DNA of 39,336 nucleotides from Bigelowiella natans CCMP2755 (Eukaryota; Protista; Cercozoa). The stretch covers positions 1-39,336 of the forward strand of contig ADNK01000727.1 in assembly GCA_000320545.1 (NCBI GenBank). Direction: 5' to 3'. Made by a program: the position numbers and the translations under genes. Below the pieces are notes generated by a model. That model had not been told where the DNA came from. It saw only the letters and a program-made list of their open reading frames with translations, and searched no databases. Of the stretch, positions 6,964 to 34,416 are shown piece after piece. Numbering within the stretch: position 1 is the first letter of the stretch; each line of letters starts with the position of its first letter.

Positions 6964-7624
6964 CTTACTTCTAACTGCACGACAAATTTTAACAAATGTG
7001 CAAACCGGGTTTGATGCGATGGGCAGCGGGAATCCAGGAACACAACACACAGCTCTGTTAGACATAAATATGTGCATGCATGGCCATGATGATCGATGCA
7101 TGTGCTTGCATACGCACGGCTGCGCACCATTCTAGCACTTCTGCTGTGCAAGATCGTGTCCATTATTGCTAGATCTAGAGGTAATATGATTACAGAGATT
7201 GCTGTTGCGCACGTACTGCGCCATTGCTAGATTGCTAGCATTGCCCGCGTGCCCTGGCTAGCGCGATGCGATGACATGCACGACGCTGCACAACAATCAA
7301 AGTGCCTGCGATGCTGCTGGCGGACGCATCGCATGCTAGCATGTCTGCTAATTAATGCATGTGCTGCTACGCACGCACGCGTCAATGTTGTCTACTTGTA
7401 ATTGCACGTACGTGCCGTGCTAGCGTGCGATCAGCTGTAGCTAGCTAGCTAGCAGGCAGACTGCGCAGCACTTCATCAGACATCGCTGCCATAGTTGATC
7501 GATCGCACAGCATGTCAGACATCACATCAGCCTCACCATGTGTCACATGCAGCATTCTACTTGTTGTGTGTCACAGTCTCGACATGGATGTTCTGCCGCT
7601 GTGCTGCAACATGATGTTGTTGCG

Positions 7625-8169
7625 TGATGTGCGCCATGCCATCAGAGCTGCGCCATTTCTCTGCTGAGACGCTCAACCCCACAGCAAGCAGCAGCAGCAA
7701 GCTCAATCCTTTAGCTAGACAAGTTGCAATCCAAATGTCCTTCCACATGGATGCAGCTCAGCTTCAAGGACATCGATCCTTGAAGCACAATTTGGTCATT
7801 GGACATCAGTTTGGATGTAGCTCTGGTCATTGGACATCAGTTCAGATGTAGCTCCAGTCATCAGCGTAGACGCAATCCACCGGGAGCTAGCACTCCGTGG
7901 ATGTGGTCAGCACAGTGCAGTTGGCACGATGTGGTGACGACAATCCTCTGACGGGATGTCGTGGTCCTTGTCGCAAGGAACAATGTCGCGATCAGCGCCC
8001 TTGCGACAGCACATCACGTTGACACGTGCAGACAGCCGAAGCTTCTCGAAAGCTTCGGGAAACAATTCGGAACATCAATTTGCGCGCCAAATGCTGTCAA
8101 TGCGCAAACATGTGACGGAAGCAAAATCGTGATTGCAAGTGAAACAGACAAGTGCCTTCGCGCATTGCA
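7625..8169 (+). repeat. 5' LTR
   Basis: tgatgtgcgcc...cgcattgca, colinear with 33872-34416 with no indels. Confidence 0.96.
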
Positions 8170-8172
8170 AAT

Positions 8173-8188
8173 TGGCTTCCACTCCAGG
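8173..8188 (+). promoter_or_regulatory. Primer-binding site (TGGCTTCCACTCCAGG)
   Basis: Begins with TGG (complement of tRNA CCA) after a 3-nt spacer downstream of the 5' LTR. The cognate tRNA is not identified. Confidence 0.7.
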
Positions 8189-8220
8189 AAAATTTTTTTT
8201 GCCCCCCCCCGGACCCTCCC

Positions 8221-11200
8221 ATGACCCCTCTTGACACCGCCGTTGACGCTGCAGTGGCCTTCACGAAGGATCCCACCGACAGCAAGGCGGTGCAGCACGC
8301 CCTCAGCGCCCTCACGCCGAATCCCATCTTTTGCGAGTTGCTTTGTCAGGGTGTGGAGAAGGCCACGGACGCTCGCATGTTCAGAGCTTTCAGGTCAATG
8401 TTGATTGAGGCCATCCCGGAGGGACAACCTCGCCAAGCTGACGTTGGTGCTGCCAACTTGCAACTTTGGCGCACCTTCTTCGCTGCGGACAACGGCAACT
8501 CGTTGCCCGCAGACGATGCTGATGCTGTTGAGTCCCCCTCTGCTGATGGCAAACGGGGCCAGCAAGTGCAACCTGAAGTCAGAATTGAATCCACGAATGA
8601 CATCAACAAAGTCAGTGTCACCCTCCCGAAGTTCAATGGCTCGAGAGGCAAGTGTGCTCGTTGGTGGAAGAAGGTTGGAAAGACTTTGGAAAGTGCTCAC
8701 CCCGGTTTCGACTTGAAGGAAAAGAACCAGTGGTTGCCCACGATCCGGGGATGCCTTCAAGGACACCAATCGGGTTGCGAGAGACTCGAGCAATGCGAGG
8801 ATCGAGAACCCAAGTTGATTGGCACGGCAGACAAGTTGGATGTTTGCCTGCTCATGGAGAAGTTCGTGAAATCTCACGATCGGAACTCCAAGGACCACTT
8901 GCTTCAGGAGTGGCGGGCGCTGTCCCAGAACGATCGCGAGCTCATCGATGACTTCAAGACTCGCTTCTTCGGATCAGTCGCCGACCTGAAAGAGCAAGGT
9001 CACGTGATCCCACCTGATCAACTTTGTGATTGCTTCAGGGACACGTGCAAAGAGTCCGCCACTTTGCGCATCAAGAAGAAAGAAATCACCGACATCGATG
9101 CTGCTGTGGATCACATCGCGGAAATTGAAGCGAATGCTGTCAAAGGCACGTCGAAAGGTCTGCACAATGTGCCCCGATCTGATCGAGCCGGTGGAAATGA
9201 AGGCACGAAAGAGACGTTCACCGACAGAAAAGGTGAAGTTGGGTGCACCCATTGCTGCGGGTTGAAGCACGGGCAGTCCCAGTGTCATCGCCGCAAGAAA
9301 GGGAAACCCAAAATGACGTTGAAAGAGAGAATTGACTTGGAGGATCAAAGGGATGAACGCAGGAATGGTCACAACGGGAGAAAGGGAAACTTGAGGGGAA
9401 ACTTGAACAACGCATCTCAGGTTCTTCAGCAGCAGGCGGAGAAGCAGGGCAAAGCGATGAACACGTTGCCAACGATGCTCGGGGGAGGCAAGGAGGCTCC
9501 GCAGGAGCCGACCCTCCAGGACGTGCGTTCTGTGCTTCACGCTGCATCACCTTGCGAGGCCGCGGGGCCTCCTCCGGATGCCGCTGATGTCCCGCCCGTT
9601 GGTCCTGTGCCCAGCGCTGAGGATTGCAAACCAGCTTCAGCCCCCACCCCGACCCCTTCTCCACAAAGCGCTGACTCTCTTCACGGCAGCCGCAAAGTGT
9701 CCATGACGAACATCGGCTTGCGCAACTCAAAGGGACAGTTTGTCACCTTTGCTGCCCTCTGGGATTCTGGTGCCATGCCCGAGTCACGTGTCAACCTGCA
9801 CACAGTCAAGGCATTGGGCCCACAGAGGTTGGTTGAGGTGCATCGAGAAAATCACAAAAACGCTCAAGACCAGTCGACTTTCTCGACCATCGGTTCCATC
9901 GAGCTTGAGGTCAACCTGAATGGTGAGGTTGTGCCTCACACCTTCAAGGTTGCCCCTGTTCATGTGAACATTGTTCTGGGACAGGGATTTTTGGAATTGG
10001 TGGGAGGGGTCATTGATGTGGTGAACCACACTGTTGCCTGTCTCCGCTCATCGCGACGCGTCCAGCAACCTGTGATCAAAGTGTCGGAGTGGAAATCAGT
10101 CGGCAACATTGGAGCCAAGGATCATGTGAACAGTTTGCCGCCTCCTGAAGAATGCCGCAAGATGTGTCCAGGGAAGAACTTGCGCCAAACAGCGGAGATC
10201 CTCGAGCGGACCCCGCCGGACGATGACCCAACGGTGGAGCAGGGGCGGGAACGTGTGAAGCATTCACTCGATGCGAAGTGTGAAAGCATCACCGTGCCGA
10301 GAACTTCTCCTTCTCCGCACATTCGCCCTGTGCGCCTGCGACTCAAAGAGGGGCACGAGGACGTCATTGTCAATGCACCTCCTCGCCCGAGGCCGGACCG
10401 CGACTGGGACCGGATCGAGAACCAGGTTGCGGAGTGGGAGCGCCAAGGGAAAGTGGTCCCCACCACCTCTGCATGGAACACCCCGCATGTCGTCGCCGCC
10501 AAGTCTGCACCCCCTCATTTCAGACCAGCGCAAGACTGCAGGAGAGTCAATGAAGTGTTGGCACCTGTGAAGTTCCCGCTTCACCGGATCGATCTCATCG
10601 TCGATGATTTGGCGCGGAAAAAGATTGAATCCATTCTGGATCAGATGGAGGCACACATGCAGACGCCGGTCCACAAGAGGGACCAGTTCATGCTCGCCTT
10701 CAGCACGAGGAAGGGCAAGCACATGTTCACTGTGCTGCCCCACGGGACAAAGGTGTCCGGGGACCTGTGCACGCAGCGGAAGTTCGAGATCCAGTCCTCC
10801 GATGGCGGTTCCGTCCTCCTGTGGCATTTCACATTTTCACACGTTGATGATGACGCAGCAGGTGCGGACACGGTTGCAGCACACATTTTCATCATGCAGT
10901 GTGTGTTGGACAGGTTCCTGAAATTCGGGATGGTGATCCGTCCGGAGAAGTGCGAGTGGCTGAAAAAGGAAGTTGTGCATTTGGGTCATTTGGTTGGCGA
11001 CGGCATTGCACGCCCTGACCCCAAGAGCCTTGCCGCGTTTGACAGTCTTCCCAAACGCCCCCTGAACCACAAGGAGTTGCGTCGGTTCCTCGGCATGGCC
11101 CAGTGGCACCTCAAGCGCTTCGCCCCCGAATGTGCAGAATGTGCGGCCGTCCTTTCCTCCACCTGCAACAGAAAGCCCAATTCGGAAAGTCCTCTCGCGG

Positions 11201-11634
11201 CAACGTGGAACGCAGCCTGCCAGTCGGCGCATGATGGGATCATCGCTGTGTGCAAGTCTGACCTTCAGAACAAAGCATTCGACAAATCCTGCCGGTCCTC
11301 GCAGGTCTGGTTTGACTGGAGCAAGTCAGGCATCAGTGCGGTGCTGGTGCAAGATGGTGAGGTGGTTGGGGTGCATGGGCGAGCCTGCAATCCTGCAGAA
11401 TCTCGCCACTCCCCTGCCAAAGGCGAACTCCTCGCTTTCACCGAAGCCCAGCTCCACTTCCGTCCCCAGCTCCTCAGTCTGGATGGCTTCCTGATGGTGA
11501 CGGATCACCGACCGCTCCCAGGTGTCATTGAGAAATTGGATTCAGATGATGAGAACCTTGCCTCCCTCAGGGTCAAAACTGAGGAGTTCAGGGATGGGCG
11601 GACGCTGGTGCATGTCAAGGGCGACTCCAATCTG
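8221..11634 (+). pseudogene. Gag-Pol, 5' part (Gag with zinc knuckle, aspartic protease, RT, RNase H); hypermutated and interrupted
   Basis: CTHCCGLKHGQSQC knuckle; ALWDSGA protease; RT motifs DCRRVN, LPHG, HVDD (YxDD), HLGH; RNase H motifs DWS, ELLA, TDHRPL. No Tyr in the 1198-aa translation provided. Confidence 0.93.
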
Positions 11635-11635
11635 C

Positions 11636-11984
11636 AGCAGACTGCTACACCACACCCCACATTTGATTTCCCATCTGCCGTCAGCAGGGGAATGACACAA
11701 AATTTTCATTTCAAAAATTCACCTGCTGACGACCTACTGCTGAACTGAATTGTTAGAATGACATGGCAAAATTGCACGAGCATGACATGTCAAGTGTTCG
11801 ACATTTGATTTCCCATCAGCAATCAGTAGCAAAATGTGCGAAAATGCGCAACATGAAAGCTTCACCTACTGACGACCTGCTGCTGAACTGAATTGCTATG
11901 ATGACATGATGAAAATCACAGGCACAATTATCGAATCCCATGTGTTTTGTGAAAACAATCTTTGTTAAAAATGACATAGCAAAA
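11636..11984 (+). repeat. Left terminal inverted repeat of PLV
   Basis: agcagactgctacaccacacccc... is the reverse complement of 31984-32323 apart from 15 transitions and a 9-bp indel (counted by eye). Confidence 0.95.
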
Positions 11985-12024
11985 AATCATCGCAATGTTG
12001 CCCGTCACTATAGTCTTTGCAAGG

Positions 12025-14007
12025 CTATTGAGGGGAAGTTCTCTCGAAATTGAACACGTCGCAATGGATTTTCACGTCGTCGTTTTTCGGCCAGAAGTGA
12101 GAGGTCTCTCCAATGCGGAACTTATGCATCTGTCCTGGAACAATTCTGGTCCACGCGAATTTTTCGTTGATTCTTTTTGTCGAACGAACCGCAGAAAATG
12201 ATATTCGTTTCGCTCCGATCTGCGTTGCCAAGGTGGAAACATAGTGCATCTTCAAGGTGTGACTCTTGGCATCAGCAACGTTAATGAGATGAAGCACTTT
12301 CTCCCCCTTGAATCGATAGATGCGAACTGCATCGAATGCTGCATTGTTCCATTCCAGAGGCACTGCCCAAACCTGTTCGCCATCTTTCACATCCTCAAAT
12401 ATTTTTTTCAGATCTTCAGTAGTTTCGTATTCGTGGACGGCATGGGCTTTCCAATCAACTGGAGCATTTTTTGAGTCGCAGACGATGACCTTTTTGTCTT
12501 CTGTTTTCATTGCTGCTTTTAGTTGAGCTAAGAAGTCCATCTCCACTACCCAGCCCATGAAAGAAGGGTTTTGAAGGTTTTCGGCAATGTTGTATCCCAT
12601 TTTCACCGCCAAAAAACTGTGCTTGATCACCAGTAGCTTTAACACGTATTTACTCACGAATACTGGATGTTTATTTGTCACCAATCCCGGAGTCTTCAAA
12701 GTGCACACCAGATGGTTTATGGCGTCAGCGCTCTCGTGTCCCGCGGTACCCTTCAAAAGAGATTCTGCGTTTCCCACTTTGTCAATCATCCGATTTATTT
12801 GTCCCTTCACTGTTTTTAGATCTGTTGCAAACATCCATCGTGCAGAATGACCTGCAAAGTAGAACTTCTCGCGGAGCTTCTCGGAAAATTCATTCTCCTT
12901 GTCTAGACAATCGATATACGTACAGACTTCTTTTTGGAATGCCTCGTCCTTTGATGCAGCAAGGTATTGCTCCAATGTCCACGGATGCATTGTATGGCGT
13001 ATCACTTCATCGAAGGCTTCTTTGCCAGCCAAAGACTTTGTAACGATGTTAACCCGTACATTGTCGTAGTGGCATGATTGCTCAAGGGCTTGGTGGTGCT
13101 GTCCATCTATCCTCAGACCATCGAGCACCACGATGTCTGCTTTACTACCATTCAAGGTTCCAGTTGCTACTAATCTCGATTTGTTCAGCTCTCCATCATT
13201 GATAAAGGAGAACATCCGGGCAGCTTTCTTGGTCTCTCCGTTGAGGAAAACCACTGTCGGAGGTCTAGCACGCAAAAAATGGACCCATAAGACGTTCTTC
13301 CCCGCAGTCCACCTCGAGACTGCCCAGCCCCAAGTCGTCACCGATTTCCCAAGTCCAGGTGTTCCAACTATTTCAAGTTCACGCTCCTCCTCCAGCTTAG
13401 TCCAAAGCTCAATGACTTCCTCCCGCCCATACAATCGGAGTTCGCCATTTCCGGTAGCATTGCGCAGACCAGCAATACCCAATCCGCTCACGACGAAGAA
13501 TTTCCCTCTCTGTGGTGTATCTGAAATGTATATCTGCGCTGAAATGTCTTCCCAGTGGGCCTCTTCCCCCCTGCCGCTTTCATCAATTTCCATGGCTGAA
13601 CACACAGGCAAAACTATCTCAGCACACCAATTGCTCATCAGATGTTACAAAAATACATTACCGGTTGCATCCTCGAATTTCTTTGACACGTCCTTCAGTT
13701 CTGCCTCCTTCGCCTGAATTTCCTCGTCCAATTTGTCAATAGCACCCTTGAGCGCCTCTTCTTTCTCCTTATTCTTCTCCGTTGCCCAAGCGATGCTCAA
13801 AGCTTTTCTTTCATCCCTCAATTTCTCGATTTGTTTGCTAATAGAGTCCATCTGATTTCCCCATGCCTCAGAACGCTGAGAACACATCAAAGCTTAAGCT
13901 CCCGAACGCAAGCCTCGTAGGATAAGTACCTGTGCTTTCGAACTTCTCCTGCTAGGGATTCTTTCATCTACCTTCCTTTTCTCGTCAAAAGATCCACTAC
14001 GCTTCAT
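12025..14007 (-). CDS. Crinkler (CRN)-like protein: coiled-coil N-terminus, P-loop NTPase and C-terminal restriction-endonuclease-fold domain; exons 14007-13930, 13875-13662, 13595-12025
   Basis: Walker A GTPGLGKS, Walker B IVVLDG, FYFAGHSARWMF and WNNAAFDAV...HTLK motifs typical of CRN NTPase-REase proteins. Two GT-AG introns (13929-13876, 13661-13596) keep the frame. The true 5' end is uncertain. Confidence 0.8.
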
Positions 14008-14294
14008 CGAGTCTGATTTCGAGTCTGGTGTGAAGATCTTCACGGGAGACTCTCGTTGCGGCGAATCCCCGGAAAGAGCATTACCGGGAGTATTACCGGT
14101 ATTGCCCGTTAGTGTCCGTTAGTGTCCGAAGATTAGGGACTCCCATTTTCATCCCGGAATGCCCAGCAGCGGGGAGAGTCTCCGGTGAAGAACTGACACG
14201 TGTGGCTGATATGGCAAAGACATTAAATGTCAAATTTTCGGGCACACGATGCCTCAAAGCTCCAGCCCAGTGATGGTGTTTTCGTACCCAGGTT

Positions 14295-17200
14295 TCACCC
14301 ATTGATCCTCAAAGCCATCTTCAAACTCAACATCCTGAGGGGTGTACTTACCAAATGCTGGGTATGTTTGTTGGTTATTCTACTAAGATTACACTCCACA
14401 CAAGTTAATCTACAGTTGTTCCAGAGATGGGGTAGATCATTATCAATTCTATCCACAGAAACATTATCAGCAGTAAATCCACATCTACACACAGGGCATT
14501 GTGGATGATTATTAACAGTTCTTTTTATCCATTCCTCATCAATATATTCTTTATCTTTCCAAGTTCTACCAGCTCTTTTGTCCTGAGATTTATATGAAGA
14601 TACTTTCATTCGTAGTTTTTGAGAAATCATACTTTCTTTTAATCTGTAGCATTCTTTATCGCTGTGCTGATATATTTGTATCTGTGATAGGTCAGTTGAA
14701 CGAGTTATAGCAGTCCAGAGCCACTTGCGAGTAATTCTACAGGTGTTAGTATCGAACACGGTAATAGGGCCATCTACTGATAATCCTTGAAAACTATGAC
14801 AGGTAGAGGCATATGATAACCTAAAATGCTTACTAATTAATTCTATAGGAATTCTTATTTCTTCCATATCACATACATCATGTGTTACAAATTCTTTTTT
14901 ATTTACTTTAATAATTTCATAAGTGTAGTTCACATATAGTTTTGGTTTCTTATTGTACTTTTTACATGCAATCTCCATACCAGCATAGTAGCAAATACCA
15001 TCTACATAAACCTTTTTTCTCGGTTTCTTTTGTAGACCGTGGATATACTTACCTACTGAACGGGATCTAAAGTTGTAGAAGGTAATATTGTTAAGAGTCT
15101 TTACTTTATCCATACTTTCAACAACTTTAAAATATTTTTTTAGCACATCAAATGGTTTAGTTTTTACATCAAATATTTCTTGTTTTAATCGTGCAAGAGT
15201 ATTTCTTTCCTCGTCTGTTTTTACTCTCTTACAGATTTTAAGAGTGATTTGATTAGGGAACATATCATTCATAGCTTCAGTTGTTCTAACATCAATGTCT
15301 TTGATGTCATTAAACAGATATTCGTTTTCAATGGGATCCAATTGAGCTAAATCACCAGTAGCAATAAATTTTTTATTAGTATGCTTATCCATAAATAACT
15401 TAATTTTTGATAGTTGATGTATTGAATACATGTAAACCTCGTCAAAGCATATAACATCATGTGGTGAAATATCAAATTTTCTTATGCATTTACATTCGTT
15501 GTTATGAATGTTAAGGCTAAATAATCTATGATAAGTAATAGCATCGTGTCCGCTCTCACGAACATTTTGGCATGATTTATTAAACGGTGCTACGAACAAG
15601 ATTTTTTTACCTTTATATTTTTTAACTGAATAACTCTTACCACTACCAGGTAGTAAAGCATTCACAAGAGTTCTATCATGCTTATCAAATGCGTTTTTAA
15701 TTACTTCTGTATTCCATTCATTCACAATATCAATCTTATTAATGTTAATTGTTTCAGGTTCTGCCACTTCATTTTCTAAAGGAACAAAGTATTGACCCAT
15801 AACCTTAGTTTTTTCCTCCAATTTCACACCACCAATGTCTTTATTAAAATCAAAGTAAGGTTTAATCTTATCAACTTTGTCTCTTACAATGATACAATCA
15901 GTTTCAATAGCTGTAGGATGTAATCCTACAGATGAACATTTATCATATAAATTAAACATCTTAACAGAAACAAGGTCATGTGTCATATCTTTAATAGGTT
16001 TGAATGTTTCTCTTACCAGTTTTTTAGTGGTTCTTACAAGTAAGAATAGATCATCACTGATAGGGTTAATTTCGCCGCCATGTAATTTCTTATAATGGTT
16101 TGCTTCATTCAAATTTTTGTAAATTTTACACACTGATTTATGATTGTATTTCTTCTCAAGCTGTCCTGTAATTTTATTACATATGAATTTATTAGCATTG
16201 ATGGTTCCAAGTTCTGTTTTGTGCAGTTTATCAACTGCTTTGCTAAATTTAACAGCAGCAACATTAGAAGGTCTAATGTAGTGTAGTATATCGTAACTGT
16301 TTTCATTCATTTGTTTCAATTTGAATCCACATGCTCTGTTGTGTCTTTTAGGTAACAAGATGTTGTGAGCTTCACCTCCATCTAAACTCATTACAACACA
16401 CATTGCAAGGTCTTCTACAGAATGATCATCACATTTAACATGATTATCAAAATAATGAAAAATAGGAATTCGAGAGATTGATTTTGAAGCCCAAGTGCAA
16501 CATTCATTAACATCAATGCCATTTCCAACAGCATCATCACTTAGTCTTCCTGCAGCAGGTCCTTTGGGACGTGCTTCATTCATTCTTAATGCTTCATTGT
16601 TAAAAATGCTTGTGTGTTCTTTTTTGATGATTTTTTGATAGAAGTCATCATCTGCTTTCACAAAATTTTCATGGTTGTTTTCATTTGCATCACAAGTAAT
16701 GATGTCATTCACGTTGTCATGGTCAGGATGAGATGTGACACATGGTTCATTGCCAATTCCAAATGACAAAGAAAGCATTCTGTCATGTTGAAAAAATGTT
16801 CTTGGTTCGCATTTGTGAACATTGATCATTTCAATTGACAATTCCCTCATGTCGCCACAATGAAAACATTCAATCCATTCATCATTCACTGTTTCAATGT
16901 GAGATGCGATGTCATTGAGGTTTTCAATGAATTTGAAACAATCACTTTTTTCTTCATCCATTGATCTGAATTTGTGTTTGTTGTGCACTTGTGATGTGCA
17001 TTTGTCACATTCTGCTTCTTTTTTTTTCTGTTCCAATTCTTTGATTTGGTGATTGAGCAAATGAGCATGATCATTGTGAACCATGACTCTGAAGTTTCGT
17101 GGTGAGATGTGCTCATTGTGTTTCTCAGGTGCAAACTTGTCAACTGAATTGTGCACGTCATCGCAAACGGTCAGCCCTGGTTCACATTTCTCAAAAAACT

Positions 17201-18083
17201 TTTTGATCTCTGCCAATGCAACAGCACCATCCTTTTTTTTTTCTTTTTTTCCTGCAATGTTGCAAAGAGCATTGTGAGCAAGATTTTTGCATCTGGATTT
17301 TTCAAATGATTTTTCACATGAGTTCATGACAGCATTGAACATGCAAGAATTCTCTCTGTTGCATTTTTCAGGTTGATGGAATGGTTCACCAAAAGTTTTG
17401 GCATCTTGGTCAATTTCACATTTGAGGCATTTGCAATTCATGGCCACATTGTTGTCATCATCTTTCACCACAATTTGACCAACATCATGATCACTTGATG
17501 ATTTGGAATCATGAGATCCATTGCAAATGATTTTGATGTGATCACCATGTTCAAATGAAGGGTCATTCATTTCCTCAGCCATGTTTTGGTTTCTCATTGA
17601 CACTCCACAAACTTGTCCATCAAGTGATTTTGATTTGATTTTGACAAATCTGCCAATGGCATTTCCAAATGCTTGAGCAGTTTTTTTCAAAACCACACCG
17701 TTGATGGTCATCACATTTGCTGGTCTCAGTCCTTTGTGATTGAATTCATCAACAGCATGTTTTCTTTCTTCATCTGCCCTGCGATGAACAAAAATTGTGC
17801 AACTTGCATTGGTTCCACCATGAATTGTGCGACATGTTTTTTTCAGTTGGCTTTCGTTGAGGTTTCTGAAAGAATTGAGACTGCCATTCACAACTTCAAA
17901 AGGTGATCCTTTGACATTCAATTTGTTGCAAGTTCCACCACCAATCTCAACCAATCGGTTGGTGTTGATGTTGCATCCATGACCATTTTTCATCTCTTTG
18001 TTTTCAATTTCAGTGAAAAGCTTTTGCAAGTTCTTTTTTTGAAGAGAACCAAACTTTCCAAATTTTTTCAAAAAACTTTTCAT
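14295..18083 (-). CDS. Fusion protein: degenerate family-B DNA polymerase, SF1 (Pif1/RecD-like) helicase and C-terminal HNH/EndoVII-like Zn domain; 5' half hypermutated
   Basis: PolB-like motifs GIDVNECCT (A), KFICNKITG (B), AIETDC (C). Helicase motifs PGSGKS, VAPFN, FDEVYM, GDLAQLDP, TCHSFQG, TAITR. C-terminal CPVC...VDRIDNDLPH...CVECN. The start at 18083 is inferred; the ORF track extends to 18365, probably through lost stops. Confidence 0.85.
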   Translation of the reverse strand: MKSFLKKFGKFGSLQKKNLQKLFTEIENKEMKNGHGCNINTNRLVEIGGGTCNKLNVKGSPFEVVNGSLNSFRNLNESQLKKTCRTIHGGTNASCTIFVHRRADEERKHAVDEFNHKGLRPANVMTINGVVLKKTAQAFGNAIGRFVKIKSKSLDGQVCGVSMRNQNMAEEMNDPSFEHGDHIKIICNGSHDSKSSSDHDVGQIVVKDDDNNVAMNCKCLKCEIDQDAKTFGEPFHQPEKCNRENSCMFNAVMNSCEKSFEKSRCKNLAHNALCNIAGKKEKKKDGAVALAEIKKFFEKCEPGLTVCDDVHNSVDKFAPEKHNEHISPRNFRVMVHNDHAHLLNHQIKELEQKKKEAECDKCTSQVHNKHKFRSMDEEKSDCFKFIENLNDIASHIETVNDEWIECFHCGDMRELSIEMINVHKCEPRTFFQHDRMLSLSFGIGNEPCVTSHPDHDNVNDIITCDANENNHENFVKADDDFYQKIIKKEHTSIFNNEALRMNEARPKGPAAGRLSDDAVGNGIDVNECCTWASKSISRIPIFHYFDNHVKCDDHSVEDLAMCVVMSLDGGEAHNILLPKRHNRACGFKLKQMNENSYDILHYIRPSNVAAVKFSKAVDKLHKTELGTINANKFICNKITGQLEKKYNHKSVCKIYKNLNEANHYKKLHGGEINPISDDLFLLVRTTKKLVRETFKPIKDMTHDLVSVKMFNLYDKCSSVGLHPTAIETDCIIVRDKVDKIKPYFDFNKDIGGVKLEEKTKVMGQYFVPLENEVAEPETININKIDIVNEWNTEVIKNAFDKHDRTLVNALLPGSGKSYSVKKYKGKKILFVAPFNKSCQNVRESGHDAITYHRLFSLNIHNNECKCIRKFDISPHDVICFDEVYMYSIHQLSKIKLFMDKHTNKKFIATGDLAQLDPIENEYLFNDIKDIDVRTTEAMNDMFPNQITLKICKRVKTDEERNTLARLKQEIFDVKTKPFDVLKKYFKVVESMDKVKTLNNITFYNFRSRSVGKYIHGLQKKPRKKVYVDGICYYAGMEIACKKYNKKPKLYVNYTYEIIKVNKKEFVTHDVCDMEEIRIPIELISKHFRLSYASTCHSFQGLSVDGPITVFDTNTCRITRKWLWTAITRSTDLSQIQIYQHSDKECYRLKESMISQKLRMKVSSYKSQDKRAGRTWKDKEYIDEEWIKRTVNNHPQCPVCRCGFTADNVSVDRIDNDLPHLWNNCRLTCVECNLSRITNKHTQHLVSTPLRMLSLKMALRING

Positions 18084-18229
18084 TGTGTTGTTGGACACAT
18101 CATCATTGCAGATTGGATTTCTTTGAGTGAGAATCAAACGAATGAAAATTTGAAAAAAATCCATGGTTTTTTTGAGAGTTTTGAAACGACCATGAAATGG
18201 TTTGAAAAGAAAAAATCTGCAGTGTTGCA

Positions 18230-18547
18230 ATGAGCGAAAACAACAAAACATTTGAATCCAAAACTTCAGGACATGTGAAAGAATTCTGCAAAAAGAACTC
18301 TCAAAAATGGCTGCGAAAGGTGGAATGCAAAGCCTGCAATTGCATGATTGGATCAGCATCACCATCTCGACACAAAAGAACCAAAAAACACATGTTCAAT
18401 GGCAATCCTAATCCATCCGAAGAGCAGAAAAAATTTGCAGATGACAACAAATGTGTCAAGTTTGGAAAATGCAAATTGGTCAAATTGGAAGAAAAATTGG
18501 ATTTTGTCATGAAGAAATTGGAAGAGTTAGGAAACAAAACACAATGA
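18230..18547 (+). CDS. Small viral zinc-finger protein
   Basis: CKACNC...SRHKRTKKH pattern followed by a coiled-coil tail. Confidence 0.6.
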   Translation: MSENNKTFESKTSGHVKEFCKKNSQKWLRKVECKACNCMIGSASPSRHKRTKKHMFNGNPNPSEEQKKFADDNKCVKFGKCKLVKLEEKLDFVMKKLEELGNKTQ

Positions 18548-18902
18548 ATGCAATTTCATGATCATCACAATGATTGTTGTGATCATGAAATTGAACAATG
18601 AATGAGTTGAACATTGATGGTTTTTGTTTTGTGACCATCAACATTGTCATTGTGATCATCAACATTTTTGAACCTTGCATGCCAAGATGGTTCACTGCAC
18701 ATTTCTTTCTCTTCAACATTGGGTTTCACAAGACCTGATTTGATCAGCATGTCCCCATTCTGTCCTTTGCAATTGTCAATGTTTTTCATGAATGCTTCTG
18801 CAGATTCATCACTAACTTCAGGTTTTGTTGGAACTTTTTCATCCTTGTCATCGTCACTCATTGTGATGTGACTGCACATTTTGTGATGATTTCAAACGAA
18901 TG

Positions 18903-19154
18903 TCAATCAAATGATGCTGTTGTGCCATCAACTTTTTCAGGAACCTTTGGAATTTCTTTTTTCTTCTTTTCCTCCTCTTTCATTTTTGGTTTGCGAACAT
19001 CCTCAAAATGTTTCTTGTTGCATTTGCTTGTCTTCTCTTTTTTTTCTTGACATCTCTTCTTTTGGCATGCTGTCATTTTTTCTCCATTTGATTTGCAATG
19101 TGCTTTTTGTTTTTCCTCATCAGACATTTGTTGAAATGGTTCAGATTTTTGCAT
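18903..19154 (-). CDS. Small basic viral protein, hypermutated
   Basis: Lys/Glu-rich. Back-mutating C/H to Y gives KAYYKSN...AYQKKRYQEKKEK, a pattern common in viral basic proteins. Confidence 0.45.
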   Translation of the reverse strand: MQKSEPFQQMSDEEKQKAHCKSNGEKMTACQKKRCQEKKEKTSKCNKKHFEDVRKPKMKEEEKKKKEIPKVPEKVDGTTASFD

Positions 19155-19185
19155 TTGAAAAAAATGATCTCAACTCAATTGACAC

Positions 19186-20367
19186 ATGATCAATTTGAGA
19201 GAAACAGAAAAAAGGTTCATGCGACAGTGGAACAATTGTTTTCCATTGATGGAAGAAGACAGAAAAGGAAACAAAGTTCCAAGTGAAGTCAATGTCAATC
19301 ATCTTCTTTGGATGATTTGCAACAAAGACGATGTTGGAGGTGATGGAAAACTTGTGGTGAGAAAAACAGACACTGAGGCAATCAATCCAATTGCAGGAAC
19401 AAGATTGCATTCATCGAACATGGAAAGGTCTTTGATCACGTGTGCTAACAACAACAGATTTGATGTTAGTGATCCAAGTGAAGATTCAAGAACTCCACCA
19501 AGATCATCAACACCGCCAAAAATGATGAGAACACCACAAAGATCACCACCACCACCACCAAGAAGACCACTGCCAAGAAGACCAGCACCAGGAGGACCAC
19601 CAGCACCAGCACCAGGAAATGGACAACAACAGATGGCACAAGAAGAAAAACTACCAGCATTGGCAAGATCAAATGACATTGACAGCAGAGAGACACAAGC
19701 AACACCATCACAAAGATTTGGTCAACAACCAGGTTTCAGTCTGACCCCAGTTGTTCCCACATCAGCACCTGCTGGATTCAAATCAACACCAGGTGACATG
19801 GGTGAGAAAAAATTGACAGATTCATCTTTGAAAGAAATTGAAGAGCACAACGACTTCCAAAGACCTTTACCTGACATTTTGGAAAGACAAAATGCAATCT
19901 GTCAGACCAAAATGAGGCAAGGGTCAATCCAAGAAGCAACTCATCCATTCGGAGGTAAATGCAATGCAACCAATGAATCACAAATCAATCATGACACCAA
20001 TTCTAAAAACCCATTTGTCAAATCTCAAGCAAGATTGAAGGTGAAAGAAACAGATGACACAAGTGAAATTTGCAGACCTCAATTGCAAGAAGCAATCGAT
20101 GATGCCAAACCACCTGCTAAATTGTTAGCAAAGATGGCCAACATGGAAGCACTCAAAGTTGAAGTTCCAGTTGAACCTCCATTCAAAGCAAGAGGTTTTG
20201 ATCCAAAGGAATTGCGACCGGTTTTCAAAATCAATTGCACTCACGGTGCAGTGCCTCATCATGTGTCTCAAGCACACAAAAAGAAGAAAGATGAAGTAGC
20301 AGATGTGCACACCAGCTACACGAAATCCAAACAAATGAAAGATGCCAGTGATCTGTTTTTTCAATGA
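19186..20367 (+). CDS. Viral hypothetical protein with Pro-rich region (possibly read-through of more than one gene)
   Basis: Long ORF with purine-rich coding bias and a PPPPPRRPLPRRPAP tract. Confidence 0.5.
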   Translation: MINLRETEKRFMRQWNNCFPLMEEDRKGNKVPSEVNVNHLLWMICNKDDVGGDGKLVVRKTDTEAINPIAGTRLHSSNMERSLITCANNNRFDVSDPSEDSRTPPRSSTPPKMMRTPQRSPPPPPRRPLPRRPAPGGPPAPAPGNGQQQMAQEEKLPALARSNDIDSRETQATPSQRFGQQPGFSLTPVVPTSAPAGFKSTPGDMGEKKLTDSSLKEIEEHNDFQRPLPDILERQNAICQTKMRQGSIQEATHPFGGKCNATNESQINHDTNSKNPFVKSQARLKVKETDDTSEICRPQLQEAIDDAKPPAKLLAKMANMEALKVEVPVEPPFKARGFDPKELRPVFKINCTHGAVPHHVSQAHKKKKDEVADVHTSYTKSKQMKDASDLFFQ

Positions 20368-20411
20368 TCATCGTTTCATCATGATCATCATTGTCTGTCA
20401 CAATTGCAACA

Positions 20412-21152
20412 ATGACCAAAAAAGCATGTGAAAAATTGGACACAAAACCCACATTGAAAAATGAATCTGAACAGATGCACAACAATTGCGGCTCAATTCC
20501 ATCTTTTCCTAACAGATGCTTGTTCACAGCTCCTACTGGATCAGGTGAAAGTGTTGCAACAGTGAATTTGCTCACTCGCAAAAGATGTTCAAGAAACTTC
20601 TTTGATGTCATTTCATTTTGCTCGCCCAATGTGAATTGCGAAGAAGAACACACAGAAATGAAAACAAAAAACGAAAAAGCAGAAACAAAATTTGAAGAAA
20701 AGTTCAAAGAGAAAGAGTTTGGTGCTGTGGTTGACAAATCAATGAAAGAACAAAAAGAACTAAAAGACAAAAAGAAACCCATGAAAAAAATGTTGGTGAT
20801 CATTGATGATTTCGCTTCAGATGAAAAAGTGATGAAAAGTGAAACATCAAAAGATTTGTTCTTTGCTGGTAGAAAACATGGTGTGTGTGTTTGGATCACC
20901 AGTCAGCATCACAAAATGGTTCAACCAGATGTTAGAACCAATGCGGAACATCTCATTGTGTTCAGTAGGCAACCCTCGAGTGAATTGAAAAAGATGGCTG
21001 AAGAAACATCAATGGGTGAATGCACCAAGAAAAAAATCATGGAAATGTTTGATGAAACATCCACCATGGATTGTTCATTTTCACATTGCAACAGAAAACA
21101 AAACATGAATGAAAGGTGCATGATTGATTTTCAAAGTTTTGTGAACATCTAA
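20412..21152 (+). pseudogene. A32/FtsK-like DNA packaging ATPase with Walker A Lys mutated
   Basis: APTGSGES (from GKS), VIIDDF, GRKHGVCVWITSQ, VRTN. Confidence 0.9.
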
Positions 21153-21441
21153 ACATGACCAATGTGGATGAACTTTTGCCAGAATTGCATTCAAAAAAAT
21201 CAGGAACAAATCATCATCATTCAACAGTCGTCCAAAAAAAAATAGCAAATCCTTTTTTGCATTTGAAAAAACCAGCTGCACATTCACCTCCAAAAAAACC
21301 AGCTGCACATTTGCCTCCAACAAAACCAGCTGGTTTTTTTGCGAGAGAATTTGTGAGAAAAGAAGTGCCTGTGAGCATCAAACGAACATTCAAAAAGCAT
21401 CAAATGTCAATTGATCATTGTCCAAATGTTGATGATGACAC

Positions 21442-22029
21442 ATGGGAAATGACAATTCTTCACCACCAAAACCAAAACCAATCCACATTCCAAAGCCACA
21501 TTTTCCAAAACCAAAACCAATTCATGTTCCAAGAATTCCTGTGGAAAAAGCAACTAAGCCTGTGAACAAAGGAATGAAAAAAGGAGCAAATTGTCTTGAA
21601 GATGAACCAACACATCCAGTTTCCACCACAAATGAAGCCAAACGAGCATTGAACAAATTGGATTCCATGTCCCACGGTGGTCTTGGTGTTGTTCATCAGG
21701 GATCTCAAGTTGTGTTTCCACAATTTGGATTGGCCGTTGCATTGGCTACTGTGGCAGATGAAATGGCTCATGATGATGGCAAGTTGTCAAAAAAAACATC
21801 AAAAAACATCTTGTTGAACCAGGCCACGGGAGGTGTTCATGGTGATTACCAAAATGTTGGAACCATTGAAAAATCTGAGCTTGTGAGTGAAATGGAAAAC
21901 AAATTCAATGCAGATTTACACGACTTACCAGATGTTGATGGAGCAATTCCAGTTTCTGTGGAAGGCAAAATTTCTGTTGATGATGCGACCAGAAAACTCA
22001 GACAAATCACCATTTCTCATCTTCTTTGA
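21442..22029 (+). CDS. Viral hypothetical protein with N-terminal MG..S (possible myristoylation) and PKP repeats
   Basis: ORF starting MGNDNSSPPKPKP with a central hydrophobic stretch. Confidence 0.5.
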   Translation: MGNDNSSPPKPKPIHIPKPHFPKPKPIHVPRIPVEKATKPVNKGMKKGANCLEDEPTHPVSTTNEAKRALNKLDSMSHGGLGVVHQGSQVVFPQFGLAVALATVADEMAHDDGKLSKKTSKNILLNQATGGVHGDYQNVGTIEKSELVSEMENKFNADLHDLPDVDGAIPVSVEGKISVDDATRKLRQITISHLL

Positions 22030-22330
22030 TTTCAGGACTTGGTGGAAATGTTCCAAGTGTCAGAATGACAACATTTGAAAAAGCATTTCTTTCTGCTACA
22101 TTTTCTGCTGTTGCAACTTGAAGCACACTGAATGTCAAAACACTAAACGTTGCACCAGATTTCAGGAAAAACTCCAAAGCCCTTTTGTCAGAAGTTGAAC
22201 AACAAGACTGGCACGCATTGATGCATTTTTCATCCTCCAATTCTTTTCTGTGCAGCATCTCTTCTGTCATTCTGTCTTTGTGTTCTTCAGAATCTTCAAC
22301 ATCTGAAGCTGCATCACTTTTTTCATCCAT
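22007..22330 (-). CDS. Small viral membrane protein
   Basis: Acidic N-terminus, SCC, two hydrophobic segments ending in PSP. Confidence 0.45.
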   Translation of the reverse strand: MDEKSDAASDVEDSEEHKDRMTEEMLHRKELEDEKCINACQSCCSTSDKRALEFFLKSGATFSVLTFSVLQVATAENVAERNAFSNVVILTLGTFPPSPEIKEDEKW

Positions 22331-22416
22331 TTTGCATTCCATGGATTGTGGAATGATCATCATGAACAGTCATGAACAAAATGCTGTGATGATTTTTTTC
22401 TGTTCTTGTGATGACA

Positions 22417-23310: not shown

Positions 23311-23377
23311 AAAAAAAAACATCACAAAAAAATCACATTCGTTTCAATGCAATTTTTTTTGTCTGCACATTGTCAAT

Positions 23378-25069: not shown

Positions 25070-25123
25070 ACTTTTGTCATTCTCAAATTCCACCAAAATT
25101 TGCATCACAAAAATTCACTTCTA

Positions 25124-29218: not shown

Positions 29219-29241
29219 ATCACAAATGTGATTCAAATGAC

Positions 29242-29520
29242 ATGCAAAAAATCCAACAATTAATGACAATGTCCAATGTCAAAGGTGGTGGTGCCATTTT
29301 TGAAGAAACACCTACAATGGCAAATGATGTAGCAGGTCAAACAATGGACACCATTGATCAACAATTGAACGATGATGATGCCCAAAATGCAGAAAACAAA
29401 TTGCAACTTGATTTTTCAAAAGAAGTTTTCACAATGGACAAAGAAAACAAAACTGTTGCGATGAATCCTGAACATGAACTCATCATTCCTAATGATTCAA
29501 TTCAAGGATGGTTCGTTTGA
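29242..29520 (+). CDS. Small viral hypothetical protein
   Basis: ORF with the same coding bias as its neighbours. Confidence 0.4.
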   Translation: MQKIQQLMTMSNVKGGGAIFEETPTMANDVAGQTMDTIDQQLNDDDAQNAENKLQLDFSKEVFTMDKENKTVAMNPEHELIIPNDSIQGWFV

Positions 29521-29551
29521 AACAGCACAGTTTTTTCATGGTCATGATGTG

Positions 29552-30169
29552 ATGACCATGAAAAAAGTGCATTTTTGCAGATCAACGTGTTCAAATGCAA
29601 GAGAAACACACATAGGTTCTGCCACTATGGATCCAAAATTGAGATTGCAAATGCATCTTGCTAATTTCAGAGCATGTGAAAAAGGTTTTGGTAATTTTTG
29701 CTCTTCGCATCAAATTTTAAAAAGAGACAATTGTGTGTTCAAAGTTGTGTTGGAAAAGGATGCTAAAAAAATGTCCGTTCATCAGAAACGAAAGAAAGAA
29801 GCAGAACTAACAGCTGAAGAAAAAACAAAAAGAAAATGTGTCAACAAAAATGTTCCAGGTAGAGATGTGAAACAATGTGGAACAGATGACAGAGATCACA
29901 TCAATTGTCATGCCAGAGATCATCATGAAGACAAAACAAAACACGATGAAACATGCTGTCCCTTCTGTGATGGACATGTGATCAAAAAATGTCACAAACA
30001 TCATGTGCACACTGAAAAGTATGCAAAAAATCTTCTCAAATCAAATGATGAAATCAAAAACACCAATGAAAGTGAGAAAGAAAGCAAGATTAGCATTGAA
30101 ATTGAAAAAATTAGGTTGGAAAGGAATGACAGAGACAGGAATGAACAGAGCAAAGCAATTAGCATGTGA
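29552..30169 (+). pseudogene. GIY-YIG endonuclease, hypermutated
   Basis: KVHFCRS...THIGSAT...RLQMH...CVNKNVPGR reads as VY...YIGST...R...H...VNK after restoring TA. The 3' end is probably extended by read-through. Confidence 0.75.
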
Positions 30170-30791: not shown

Positions 30792-30982
30792 CAATGCAAT
30801 GTTGAAAAAATCAACCAAAAGACAGAAAGATTTGTTAGCAGCTCACTAGCTCACAGCAAGCATCATGGCAAAAACATGTGGCTTCTGTGAGAATGAATCC
30901 AATGTTGGGTGAAACTTTCAAAGAAGCACACGAGATGGCAACTGAAAAGCATGGCAAGTGAATGATTTTTGTTGTTGTCATC

Positions 30983-31927: not shown

Positions 31928-31983
31928 TTGTCACTTTGGGTGAGAATGAATTCACAGTGTTTTCAACGATGCTCTGCTGTGGA

Positions 31984-32323: not shown

Positions 32324-33853
32324 GCGTCGGACTTCTGGTCAAGAACGTGGCCAAGTGAGAAGATGGAAAAGGGCTCCCTGACCAACACAGTTTGCAGCAT
32401 CACCCTTGAGGGTGGCGATTTCAAGCTGCGGAGCGAGGACCGTCGGGACCTCAGCGAGCGGAAAGAGAAATGTGGGTTGGTGTGCCAAGTCTCTGACACG
32501 CATGCTGAGGTCAAAACTGAAGATGCGCAGAGGATGTGCGTGCCCGCTCGCAGTCGCCGTTCTCTGCTCTGCAGTCTCCATTTCCCTGATCATCAGGGGG
32601 AGCACACTCTTGTCCGCAGGCTCCAGCCCCACTGCACTCCCAACAAGCAGGAACACGTGCGGGAGTTTCTGAAGCACTGCACCTGTTGCACCTCTGAGCC
32701 GCAGATGCTTCTCCGCCGCGAGTCCCCCAAGTCCAAGCAACAGTCTGTCATCCAAGCGGACAAGCACTTGGACGTGGCACAACTGGACGTGTGCTCTCGT
32801 GGGGACCAGAACTGCCTCACGTTTGCGGATGTCAAAACGAAGAGGGTGTGGGTCAGGAAGCTTCTCAAGAAGGGCGCCGCGAAAAAGAACAAGGGCGCCC
32901 ACAAGCGCAAAGTGCTGGAACAGCATGTGATCTGGGAGTCCAGCTTGGGCCAAGTGCCCAAGCAGTTGCGGATGGACAATGAGGATGCGTCAATCGCTGT
33001 TCCTCACAAGAACATCCGCGCTCACCCGGCTCACCGTCCCCAGAACAATGGCATCATGGAGAGGGCTCATCAGGAGGTTGCACGTCTGTGCAGGTCGATG
33101 AATTCGACCCCTGATGAAGTGTGCAAGTGCCTCCGTGTCAACTTGGAACCCCTCCAGCCTGCACTTGAAGCTGGGGGAGGCGAGGAGCACAAGGTGAAGT
33201 GTGGGCTAGCTTCAAAGCAAGCTCAGCCGTCAGCCAACATTGCCACGGCGTCGGCACATGACGGTGGGACTCTCGAACCGGGAAGCTTGGTGCTCGTCAA
33301 AGTGCACTCCCGCTCCCGGAAGAAAAGCGATCCTGCATGGGTGGGACCGTTTGAGGCACAGAGTCGTGCCTCCACCAAGTCACACTTCCTGAAGCGCAAT
33401 GACAGGCTGTCTCACCGTCACATCGACGATGTGAAACCGTTCTCCTTGGCCGACGAGACTTTCAAAGACTCCAAGGTGAACCCTGTTGTGTTCGAAAAAG
33501 GGAAAAGCCACTCAGGCAAGATGCCAAAGAGCTTCGACGTGAAACATGAGAACCTGAATGCGGACTGCTCCGGGGACTGGAAAGGTGAGACCGTGTGGTT
33601 GGGACGTCCGGGAGGGGAAGAGCTTGAACGAGTTGTGTCCAAGTTGAAGCTGCGAGGCTTCAAGTCAGCCGTGCTCGTCGTCCCCGAAGTTCCCTTCCGT
33701 GATTGGTGTGCCACGTTGGAGGGCATTCGGAACGCCCGTTGGCATGGAGTTGAGCCCGGAGATGAGCACCAGTTTTGGGTGGACTCATCGGGCCGCCCCC
33801 ACTGCAAGCCCCCTGTTGCTTGGTGGGTTGTGAGGATTGCTGGCAAAGGGTGA
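32324..33853 (+). pseudogene. Pol 3' part: integrase (HHCC, DDE, GPF) plus a C-terminal adenine-methyltransferase-like domain
   Basis: LHFPDH...CTCC; QLDV, RMDNE, PQNNGIMER; WVGPF. Begins ASDFWSR, completing the RNase H terminal motif. No Tyr in the translation. Confidence 0.92.
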
Positions 33854-33863
33854 ATTCGCGTCT

Positions 33864-33871
33864 GAGGGAGG
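33864..33871 (+). promoter_or_regulatory. Polypurine tract
   Basis: GAGGGAGG immediately before the 3' LTR TG. Confidence 0.75.
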
Positions 33872-34416
33872 TGATGTGCGCCATGCCATCAGAGCTGCGC
33901 CATTTCTCTGCTGAGACGCTCAACCCTGCAGCAAGCAGCAGCAGCAAGCTCAATCCTTCAGCTGGACAAGTTGCAATCCAAACGTCCTTCCACATGGATG
34001 CAGCTCAGCTTCAAGGACATCGATCCTTGAAGCACAATTTGGTCATCAGACATCAGTTTGGATGCAGCTCTGGTCATCAGACATCAGTTCAGATGTGGCT
34101 CTGGTCATTGGCGCAGACGCAATCCACCGGGAGCCAGTGCTCCGTGGATGTGGTCAGCACAGTGCAGTTGGCACGATGTGGCAACGACAATCCTCTGACG
34201 GGATGTCGTGGTCCTTGTCGCAAGGAACAATGTCGCGATTGGCGCCCTTGCGACAGCACATCACGTTGACACGTGCAGACAGCCGAAGCTTCTCGAAAGC
34301 TTCGGGAAACAATTCGGAACATCAATTTGCGCGCCAAATGCTGTCAATGCGCAAACATGTGACGGAAGTGAAATCATGATTGCAAGTGAAACAGACAAGT
34401 GCCTTCGCGCATTGCA
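33872..34416 (+). repeat. 3' LTR
   Basis: Direct repeat of 7625-8169, followed by TSD TGCG. Confidence 0.96.

What the first reader, a model, noticed from the sequence alone, without database searches (positions are those of the whole stretch)
11985..14380. Spliceosomal-intron-containing Crinkler-like effector gene enclosed within viral TIRs
A host-like, higher-GC segment with a CRN NTPase-REase gene starts where the left TIR ends and abuts the 3' end of the helicase ORF in the same orientation. The helicase ORF runs on into this segment before stopping. I see no TSD or terminal repeats around the segment. Either the virus captured a eukaryotic toxin/effector gene, or a CRN element (a family proposed to derive from transposons) inserted later and replaced part of the left arm. 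Its unmutated state favours recent arrival or active protection.
Basis: partly seen in the sequence, partly recalled or inferred. Interest (0 to 1): 0.7.

Follow-up and report, generated by a model that had tools for sequence, protein, structure and literature searches.

The report
Algal provirus carries swappable spliced effector
An integrated polinton-like virus of a marine alga carries an intron-containing Crinkler-type gene; several virus copies likely share its front end while swapping its predicted nuclease-bearing back end, and the host's anti-virus mutation process fades out around it.

Summary
The gene is real: three exons, GT-AG introns at the stated coordinates, a 620-aa frame, and both junctions spliced in RNA of wild relatives. 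It encodes a coiled-coil header, an AAA+/STAND-like NTPase and a REase-like tail; a homologue of this core carries a Pfam Crinkler header. The host is Bigelowiella natans and the element is a PLV-Bnat inserted in a gypsy element.

Viral helicase sequence continues to 14254; the 'run-on' is a one-base loss in this copy. Contigs at 5-7 times single-copy depth cover the helicase tail, promoter and exon 1, so the gene looks like a resident slot of the virus sub-family, not a one-off insert. Sister gene models keep the header but carry unrelated NTPase-REase modules, swapped at 13574.

The unmutated state is positional. TpA hypermutation spares about 2 kb of viral helicase and part of the left TIR, fading with distance (Tyr kept 19/21 near, 1/32 far). 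Best reading: a virus-borne, host-transcribed polymorphic effector cassette. Nuclease activity, target and expression of this copy are untested, and no genome assembly was available.

The parts
11634..11984 (+). Left terminal inverted repeat of the PLV; only partly TpA-mutated
   Evidence: 13 differences to the right TIR in the 293-nt core, all A/T left versus G/C right; loose ends at 11634 and 11984/11985
11985..12024 (-). 40 nt of 3' untranslated sequence between the stop codon and the TIR
   Evidence: sequence; X2 contig 11948-12192 and X15 RNA contig 11990-12723
12025..13595 (-). Exon 3: last 22 nt of the shared header, then the type-A module (AAA+/STAND-like NTPase, helical linker, REase-like domain)
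13574..13574 (-). Header/module swap point, just after the M-E-I-D-E-S-G motif
   Evidence: loose ends at 13574 in X1, X2 and X15; protein mosaics
13596..13661 (-). Intron 2, 66 nt, GT-AG
   Evidence: RNA joint 13595-13662 in X15
13662..13875 (-). Exon 2: coiled-coil header (94% to P0024, 40% to P0001)
13876..13929 (-). Intron 1, 54 nt, GT-AG
   Evidence: spliced loose end in X15
13930..14007 (-). Exon 1 coding part: basic 26-aa N-terminus with no hydrophobic signal stretch
   Evidence: identical in P0001 and P0024
14008..14253 (-). Shared 5' and promoter region; likely 40-nt 5'UTR intron at 14245-14206
   Evidence: multi-copy contigs with 0 differences; GT-AG; X15 joint 14206-14247 (one contig, depth 3.45)
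14254..14379 (-). True C-terminal tail of the viral helicase; out of frame in this copy (one base fewer at 14377)
14295..18395 (-). Tlr1-like SF1 helicase with C-terminal HNH motif; 3' part nearly unmutated, 5' part saturated with TpA mutations
   Evidence: Pfam AAA_30 and UvrD_C_2; homologues; Tyr gradient
11636..16700 (.). Zone spared from TpA hypermutation, fading on both sides
20385..21152 (+). A32-like packaging ATPase
   Evidence: Pfam Pox_A32 E 1.5e-5, above cut-off
29465..30169 (+). Likely GIY-YIG nuclease (weak)
   Evidence: tblastn E 0.013 to the L042 ORF
31984..32325 (-). Right TIR; no TpA left
7624..11635 (+). Gypsy-type LTR element, left LTR (7624-8100) and gag-RT-RNase H, interrupted by the PLV
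32324..34347 (+). Rest of the gypsy element: integrase region and right LTR (33871-34347)

Best explanation
This spliced gene is likely a resident accessory cassette of a Bigelowiella natans polinton-like virus sub-family: a shared coiled-coil header joined to an exchangeable NTPase plus predicted restriction-type nuclease module, likely transcribed by the host from the integrated virus and likely serving as a conflict effector. SHOWN: the gene lies between the helicase stop (14254) and the left TIR; it has canonical introns; sister gene models combine two header variants with three module types; TpA mutation fades with distance from the gene. INFERRED: (1) an ancestor of the sub-family captured a eukaryotic CR gene into the slot after the helicase; (2) the virus multiplied with it, and recombination between copies at the end of the header (13574) swaps modules; (3) the host-type promoter in the helicase tail keeps the locus transcribed or host-like in chromatin, which shields about 5 kb from the TpA mutator while the rest of the provirus is destroyed; (4) the protein is an NTPase-gated DNase aimed at incoming giant viruses or rival elements, or a maintenance toxin.
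For: Multi-copy linkage: in X1, contigs 13926-14052, 14086-14201, 14172-14273 (0 differences; depth 380, 507, 489) and 14296-14495 (depth 443), against about 72 per copy (the module contig 13011-13581 has depth 144 and matches two 99.6%-identical models). X2 gives 28-46 against about 5. A 1800-nt contig of a divergent copy ends on the same path at 14318. X15 record 13 joins 14386-14433, 14247-14289 and 14161-14206. The first 14 aa of P0033 equal window 14249-14290 read on the + strand, and P0033 has a header and a type-C module. Mosaics: P0009 shares its coil with P0024 (94%) but their modules give no BLAST hit at E 0.01; P0001 shares its coil with P0020 (100%) but not its module; P0009 and P0001 share the module (99.6%) but not the coil (40%). 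The family also appears in Lotharella oceanica and B. longifila transcript-derived proteins. Core family: 1798 representatives at E<=0.001; P0204, a cluster mate of core homologue P0175, has a Crinkler header above the Pfam cut-off. Model pLDDT 88; best Foldseek match is the STAND protein Avs5, E 1.2e-6. Conserved E351, D421 (109 of 111) and H445 (102 of 111). Gradient: Tyr kept 19/21 below 16000, 4/12 at 16000-16500 and 1/32 above, P 3e-11. Paralogue P0005 keeps 0 of the 11 Tyr of P0010, against 9 of 11 here.
Against: No genome assembly was held, so no second complete TIR-to-TIR copy with a different module was read. Linkage rests on short contigs and their depth, and no listed DNA contig bridges the helicase stop with 31 letters on each side. 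The read-laying tool itself warns that depth is no copy number. A 3401-nt contig of a divergent copy leaves the path at 14321, so not all copies carry the gene. In P0033 the helicase tail is inverted relative to the header. The family's Q-x-T motif (Q in 89, T in 99 of 111) is N438-x-A440 here, so this module may be a weak or dead nuclease. The REase fold was not shown by structure search (one search covered residues 16-308). One X15 contig holds intron 1 unspliced (13866-13943). Transcription of this copy was not shown. No free virus with the gene was found: 0 of 40 and 0 of 6 distant helicase loci had a CR match (one E 0.008 hit lies inside a helicase ORF).
Confidence: 0.58

Rival explanations
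1. The NTPase-REase protein is the virus's mobility enzyme, having replaced the retroviral-type integrase in the same slot.
For: In distant PLVs with the same helicase, an rve integrase follows the helicase: Pfam rve in L001, L002, L003 and, after a GIY-YIG-like ORF, L043, i.e. 4 of 13 full or partial helicase loci (two of the four are under the Pfam cut-off); L041 and L042 have look-alike cut ORFs, judged by eye. No rve was found in this PLV and I saw no clear TSD. NTPase-REase pairs are linked to transposons (PMC5289972 passages).
Against: The modules are unrelated or about 30% alike while the TIRs are shared, which is odd for an end-recognising enzyme. The motif is degenerate in type A. The integrase search is insensitive on hypermutated DNA: it also missed the gypsy integrase. 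Many PLVs use a tyrosine recombinase (PMC5499653), which was tested only by Pfam, PHROGs and the Atlas.
Confidence: 0.12
2. The amplified unit is a host-domesticated or non-autonomous fragment (helicase tail, promoter, CR gene) copied by duplication or gene conversion; the virus is a dead scaffold and the gene serves the host alone.
For: Summed depth is higher at 13660-15240 than further into the helicase. The orientation in P0033 is rearranged. Most of this provirus is saturated with mutations. The type-A module also occurs with SAM-like headers (P0012, Pfam SAM_PNT E 0.004), so modules also live in other gene contexts.
Against: The gene lies inside intact paired TIRs with a viral gene set. 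Divergent helicase copies lead into the same tail. Lower depth further in is expected when copies are mutated independently (23-48 differences per contig).
Confidence: 0.2
3. The spared zone is a recent recombination patch from a young, unmutated virus copy that brought the module with it; nothing is protected.
For: Module swapping shows recombination among copies. Promoter and exon 1 are identical to the multi-copy contigs. Some other copies keep ancestral letters where this one is mutated (for example 17085).
Against: The load is graded (Tyr 10/10, 5/6, 4/5, 4/12, 1/8, 0/24 in successive 500-nt bins) and the left TIR is only half spared (TpA o/e 0.30 against 0.00). This copy differs from the main family by 12 substitutions and a gap at 14296-14495.
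Confidence: 0.2
4. One reading: a CRN element inserted late into this copy and replaced part of the left arm.
For: Host-like GC, GC3 and introns; homologues are eukaryotic.
Against: Multi-copy continuity from helicase to header; no TSD or repeats; intact helicase tail up to 14254; protection reaches into viral DNA.
Confidence: 0.06

Closest known systems
PLV-Bnat ('transpovirons' of B. natans, reclassified as polinton-like viruses; PMC5499653)
   Same: TIR-bounded ~20-kb element with Tlr1-like SF1 helicase with C-terminal HNH, A32 ATPase and GIY-YIG; same host
   Different: In the passages, section 6 and the supplement search I saw no CR gene, intron or variable cassette is mentioned. Blanc et al. 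2015 was not held and might note it.
CR/Crinkler effectors with NTPase+REase C-termini (Zhang et al. 2016, seen only as cited in PMC5289972 and PMC6131194)
   Same: Header plus NTPase plus REase-like architecture; recombination hot spot at the end of the header; the core is homologous to proteins with a Crinkler header
   Different: Coiled-coil header, no LxLFLAK or HVLVxxP; non-pathogenic alga; sits inside a virus; the Q-x-T motif reads N-x-A
Punuivirus latency genes (bioRxiv 10.64898/2026.10.09.758095; abstract and section 5)
   Same: An endogenous virus with spliceosomal-intron genes read as host-like genes during latency
   Different: Giant virus with 61 such genes and 5mC silencing; here a 20-kb PLV, one polymorphic effector slot and a TpA mutator
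TpA hypermutation of viral DNA in B. natans (bioRxiv 10.64898/2026.01.13.699255; parts 1-3 of 5)
   Same: TpA to CpA/TpG changes in virus and retroelement DNA
   Different: The parts I read describe no local sparing or gradient around a gene inside a target; its supplementary tables were closed and may list this locus
Bacterial polymorphic toxin systems and prophage accessory defence slots (recalled, not from a call)
   Same: Constant N-terminus with swappable C-terminal nuclease; variable cargo at a fixed position in a temperate virus
   Different: Eukaryotic and spliced; no immunity gene was identified

Membership tests
PLV-Bnat / Tlr1-helicase PLVs | Terminal inverted repeats around a 15-25 kb element | tested here: met
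   11634-11984 and 31984-32325
PLV-Bnat / Tlr1-helicase PLVs | Large SF1 helicase with C-terminal HNH | tested here: met
   Pfam AAA_30 E 3.6e-8; 19 homologues of 1205-1419 aa; conserved D-R..H..N..C..C columns
PLV-Bnat / Tlr1-helicase PLVs | Inactivated pDNAP domain in the helicase | not tested
   from PMC5499653; the 5' half of this copy is hypermutated
PLV-Bnat / Tlr1-helicase PLVs | A32-like packaging ATPase | tested here: met
   Pox_A32 25 bits, cut-off 22.8
PLV-Bnat / Tlr1-helicase PLVs | Double jelly-roll major and minor capsid proteins | tested here: inconclusive
   no relevant Pfam or PHROG match for 23306-25852 or other ORFs; not folded
PLV-Bnat / Tlr1-helicase PLVs | Integrase (rve or tyrosine recombinase) | tested here: inconclusive
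   no hit; the rve profile also missed the gypsy integrase
CR proteins, NTPase+REase type | P-loop NTPase | tested here: met
   Walker A G77-K83-S84 and D158 conserved in 90% or more; AAA+/STAND fold, Z 11.2, rmsd 5.8, 184 aligned
CR proteins, NTPase+REase type | C-terminal REase-fold domain with catalytic residues | tested here: inconclusive
   helix-3 strands-helix-strand core with conserved E351, D421, H445; Q-x-T is N-x-A here; fold searches did not test this domain; no Pfam REase among the top 25 families of 80 sequences
CR proteins, NTPase+REase type | Core homologous to proteins with a recognised CR header | tested here: met
   P0175 at E 7e-47; its cluster mate P0204 has PF20147 at 28.5 bits, cut-off 24.6
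CR proteins, NTPase+REase type | Separable header with recombination at the header/C-terminus boundary | tested here: met
CR proteins, NTPase+REase type | Assignment to a numbered CR-NTPase or CR-REase family of Zhang et al. 2016 | not testable with these tools
   paper and profiles not held
Canonical oomycete Crinkler (CRN) | Ubl header with LxLFLAK and HVLVxxP | tested here: not met
   header is a coiled coil; no PF20147 match in the exon ORFs or in header-bearing relatives
Canonical oomycete Crinkler (CRN) | Delivery into another organism's cells | not testable with these tools
   exon 1 is basic with no hydrophobic stretch
Autonomous DNA transposon inserted in the virus | Own terminal repeats or target-site duplication | tested here: not met
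   none of 7 nt or more at either candidate boundary

The most novel reading that the evidence does not exclude
Chlorarachniophyte polinton-like viruses run a eukaryotic polymorphic-toxin locus: a fixed spliced header with nuclease modules exchanged between proviruses, expressed during latency as an anti-giant-virus or addiction weapon, and able by looking like a host gene to shield itself and nearby viral DNA from the host's TpA mutator.
Probability: 0.35. Interest if true: 0.88.

Novelty: new variant of a known kind. Interest (0 to 1): 0.7.

Why it matters
How integrated PLVs and virophages benefit or manipulate their hosts is largely unknown. A spliced, swappable nuclease-type effector at a fixed slot gives a concrete candidate, and giant viruses of chlorarachniophytes are in culture (PMC13196603, search listing only). 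It also gives CR effectors a role in a non-pathogen and a possible vehicle for their spread. Separately, the locus is a natural experiment on how the newly described TpA mutator picks targets: within one provirus the load goes from near zero to saturation over about 2 kb from a host-like promoter, which points to transcription or chromatin rather than sequence origin. Seven literature searches listed no paper on a CR gene in a PLV; Blanc 2015 and Zhang 2016 could not be read.

Tried and rejected
No genome was held, so paralogous loci could not be read directly. Scans for the module, the header or a close helicase in viral contigs found nothing; the header scan of metagenome contigs found nothing. 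Searches gave only distant helicases (40 and 6 loci), none with a CR gene. A first fold with 8 sequences was poor (pLDDT 44) and was dropped for the 111-sequence model. Foldseek and VIA matches covered only the NTPase; the absence of a REase match is no evidence either way. The PDB sequence search gave only P-loop matches. The ESM Atlas gave nothing usable. PADLOC matched some homologues weakly but not this protein. The fused helicase-CRN JGI model P0009 was rejected as a real protein: its joins at 14568-14209 and 14096-13995 appear in no listed RNA joint and it skips the conserved HNH. Selection on protein was rejected as the cause of TpA retention, because the spared zone includes non-coding TIR and the 3' half of a helicase whose 5' half is destroyed. 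Earlier findings of this scan returned nothing.
Full report
Setting. Database labels of near-identical proteins place the window in Bigelowiella natans: P0009 is the JGI model of this locus and P0001 a 99% paralogue. A 20.7-kb element bounded by inverted repeats (11634-11984, 31984-32325) interrupts the pol gene of a gypsy-type LTR element between RNase H and integrase (LTRs 7624-8100 and 33871-34347). It encodes a large SF1 helicase with a C-terminal HNH motif, an A32-like ATPase and a weak GIY-YIG match. This fits the PLV-Bnat elements of PMC5499653 (passages and section 6). Capsid genes and an integrase were not identified.

The gene. Exons 14007-13930, 13875-13662 and 13595-12025 with GT-AG introns of 54 and 66 nt give 620 codons. 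RNA run X15 (marine metatranscriptome) shows a joint 13595-13662 and a loose end at 13930 equal to the end of exon 2 at 27 of 30 letters. These come from relatives or paralogues; no run showed transcription of this copy, and one X15 contig has intron 1 unspliced. The stop lies 40 nt from the TIR, and an X2 DNA contig crosses that junction with one difference.

The protein. Exon 2 is a coiled coil. The exon-3 product belongs to a large family (1798 representatives at E<=0.001). With 111 sequences it folds at pLDDT 88 into an AAA+/STAND-like NTPase and a C-terminal alpha/beta domain with conserved E351, D421 and H445 (numbering from the ATG at 13593). That pattern fits a restriction-endonuclease fold as I recall it, but the structure searches did not test this domain, and the family's Q-x-T is N-x-A here. 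A cluster mate of homologue P0175 carries a Pfam Crinkler header above cut-off. So it is a CR-type NTPase-REase protein in the broad sense summarised in PMC5289972 (passages), not a canonical LFLAK Crinkler.

The right-hand boundary is not 14380. Contigs of other copies have one more base after 14377 (X2 48.2 of 48.2 depth; X1 826.6 of 977.7). In that frame 14379-14254 encodes a tail that matches wild helicase P0038 (E 4e-7) and resembles the end of P0037. The helicase therefore ends at 14254, and the run-on is a defect of this copy or of the assembly. GC declines smoothly.

The slot is shared by several copies. In DNA run X1, contigs of depth 380-507 with no differences cover 13926-14052, 14086-14201 and 14172-14273, and one of depth 443 covers 14296-14495. 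A module contig shared by two models has depth 144, so one copy is about 72. X2 gives 28-46 against about 5. That suggests 5-7 copies or more, with the caveat that contig depth is a rough measure and that no listed DNA contig formally bridges 14254. One wild RNA contig (depth 3.45) joins 14386-14433, 14247-14289 and 14161-14206. JGI model P0033 begins with 14 residues encoded by the helicase tail on the opposite strand and continues into a header and another module. One divergent copy leaves the path at 14321, so the gene is not in every PLV-Bnat.

The module is swappable. A header search returned 7 proteins of 367 candidates. B. natans models carry three module types: A (P0009, P0001, P0005), B (P0020, P0025) and C (P0024, P0032, P0033). 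Transcript-derived proteins add B in Lotharella oceanica and two further types. A gives no BLAST hit to B or C at E 0.01, and B and C are about 30% alike. Header variants and modules assort crosswise. Contigs in X1, X2 and X15 leave the window at 13574, right after the shared motif. The type-A module also occurs with SAM-like headers. Whether each of these models lies in a PLV was not read directly.

The spared zone. B. natans hypermutates TpA in viral DNA (bioRxiv 10.64898/2026.01.13.699255, parts 1-3 of 5). Here the gypsy element has 0 TpA against 177 expected and the bulk of the virus 141 against 1268. The helicase 3' part keeps 125 of 138 and 86 of 105, falling to 11 of 33 and then 0 of 167. 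Where wild helicase P0037 has Tyr and the window has Tyr, His or Cys (columns with other residues left out), Tyr is kept in 19 of 21 below 16000, 4 of 12 at 16000-16500 and 1 of 32 beyond (P 3e-11). The left TIR keeps 9 TpA and the right none; all 13 differences run A/T to G/C in the right TIR. The gene keeps 9 of 11 Tyr of transcript-derived P0010, while paralogue P0005 keeps none, so the gene can be hit elsewhere. Sparing is thus positional and graded. Protection around an active host-like promoter is the simplest reading; a recombination patch is not excluded.

Mechanism. I infer an ancient capture of a CR gene into the position after the helicase, where 4 of 13 distant helicase loci have an rve integrase. 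The virus then spread with it, modules were exchanged by recombination at the header end, and the host expresses it from the integrated state, much as for the intron-bearing latency genes of punuivirus (abstract and section 5). The likeliest role is an NTPase-gated nuclease used against giant viruses or rival elements, or for provirus maintenance. Rivals are a mobility enzyme, a domesticated host fragment and a recombination patch.

Novelty and limits. Seven searches listed no report of a CR gene in a PLV; passages of PMC12220804 on cryptophyte PLVs had no hit for toxin, Crinkler or cargo. Blanc et al. 2015 and Zhang et al. 2016 were not held, and the preprint supplements were closed; any of them may mention this gene. 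Each part is known; the combination appears new. Interest 0.7.

Noticed in passing
window 7624-11635 and 32324-34347: The gypsy element hosting the virus is almost TpA-free (0 of 177 and 1 of 69 expected) while its long ORFs stay open, with Tyr largely replaced by His or Cys: an extreme end state of the TpA mutator on a retroelement. The left LTR keeps a few TpA.
   Followed up: partly
window 11634-11926 versus 32033-32325: Of 13 TIR differences, 6 are in TpA and 7 in ApT context, all towards G/C in the right TIR. ApT may be a secondary target; ApT o/e is 0.64 in the right gypsy part.
   Followed up: partly
window 14292-14387, + strand: A GT-AG stretch on the + strand is skipped in an X15 RNA contig, and the first exon of JGI model P0033 ends at the same donor: a hint of an antisense transcript into the helicase 3' end, which would match the reach of the spared zone. 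One contig, depth 3.45.
   Followed up: partly
window 11926 to 16863: One X1 contig (depth 67.5, 26 letters on the short side) joins the TIR directly to the helicase interior: possibly a copy lacking the gene and the helicase 3' end.
   Followed up: no
window 18401-31980: TpA left in the mutated virus lies mostly in CTAA, TTAG, GTAG and CTAC contexts (115 of 144 counted from 16600), suggesting a wider sequence preference of the mutator or spared stop codons.
   Followed up: no
L001:13840-14850, L002:4102-5136, L003:13268-14422, L043:2058-3023: Distant PLVs with the same helicase type carry an rve integrase directly or nearly directly after it.
   Followed up: yes
window 30863-31930, - strand: A 355-codon ORF next to the right TIR has no Pfam, PHROG or Atlas match; it is a candidate for the missing recombinase.
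   Followed up: partly
window 25849-28062: A 737-codon ORF has an internal repeat about 1330 nt apart (26149-26213 and 27481-27545), like a fibre protein.
   Followed up: no
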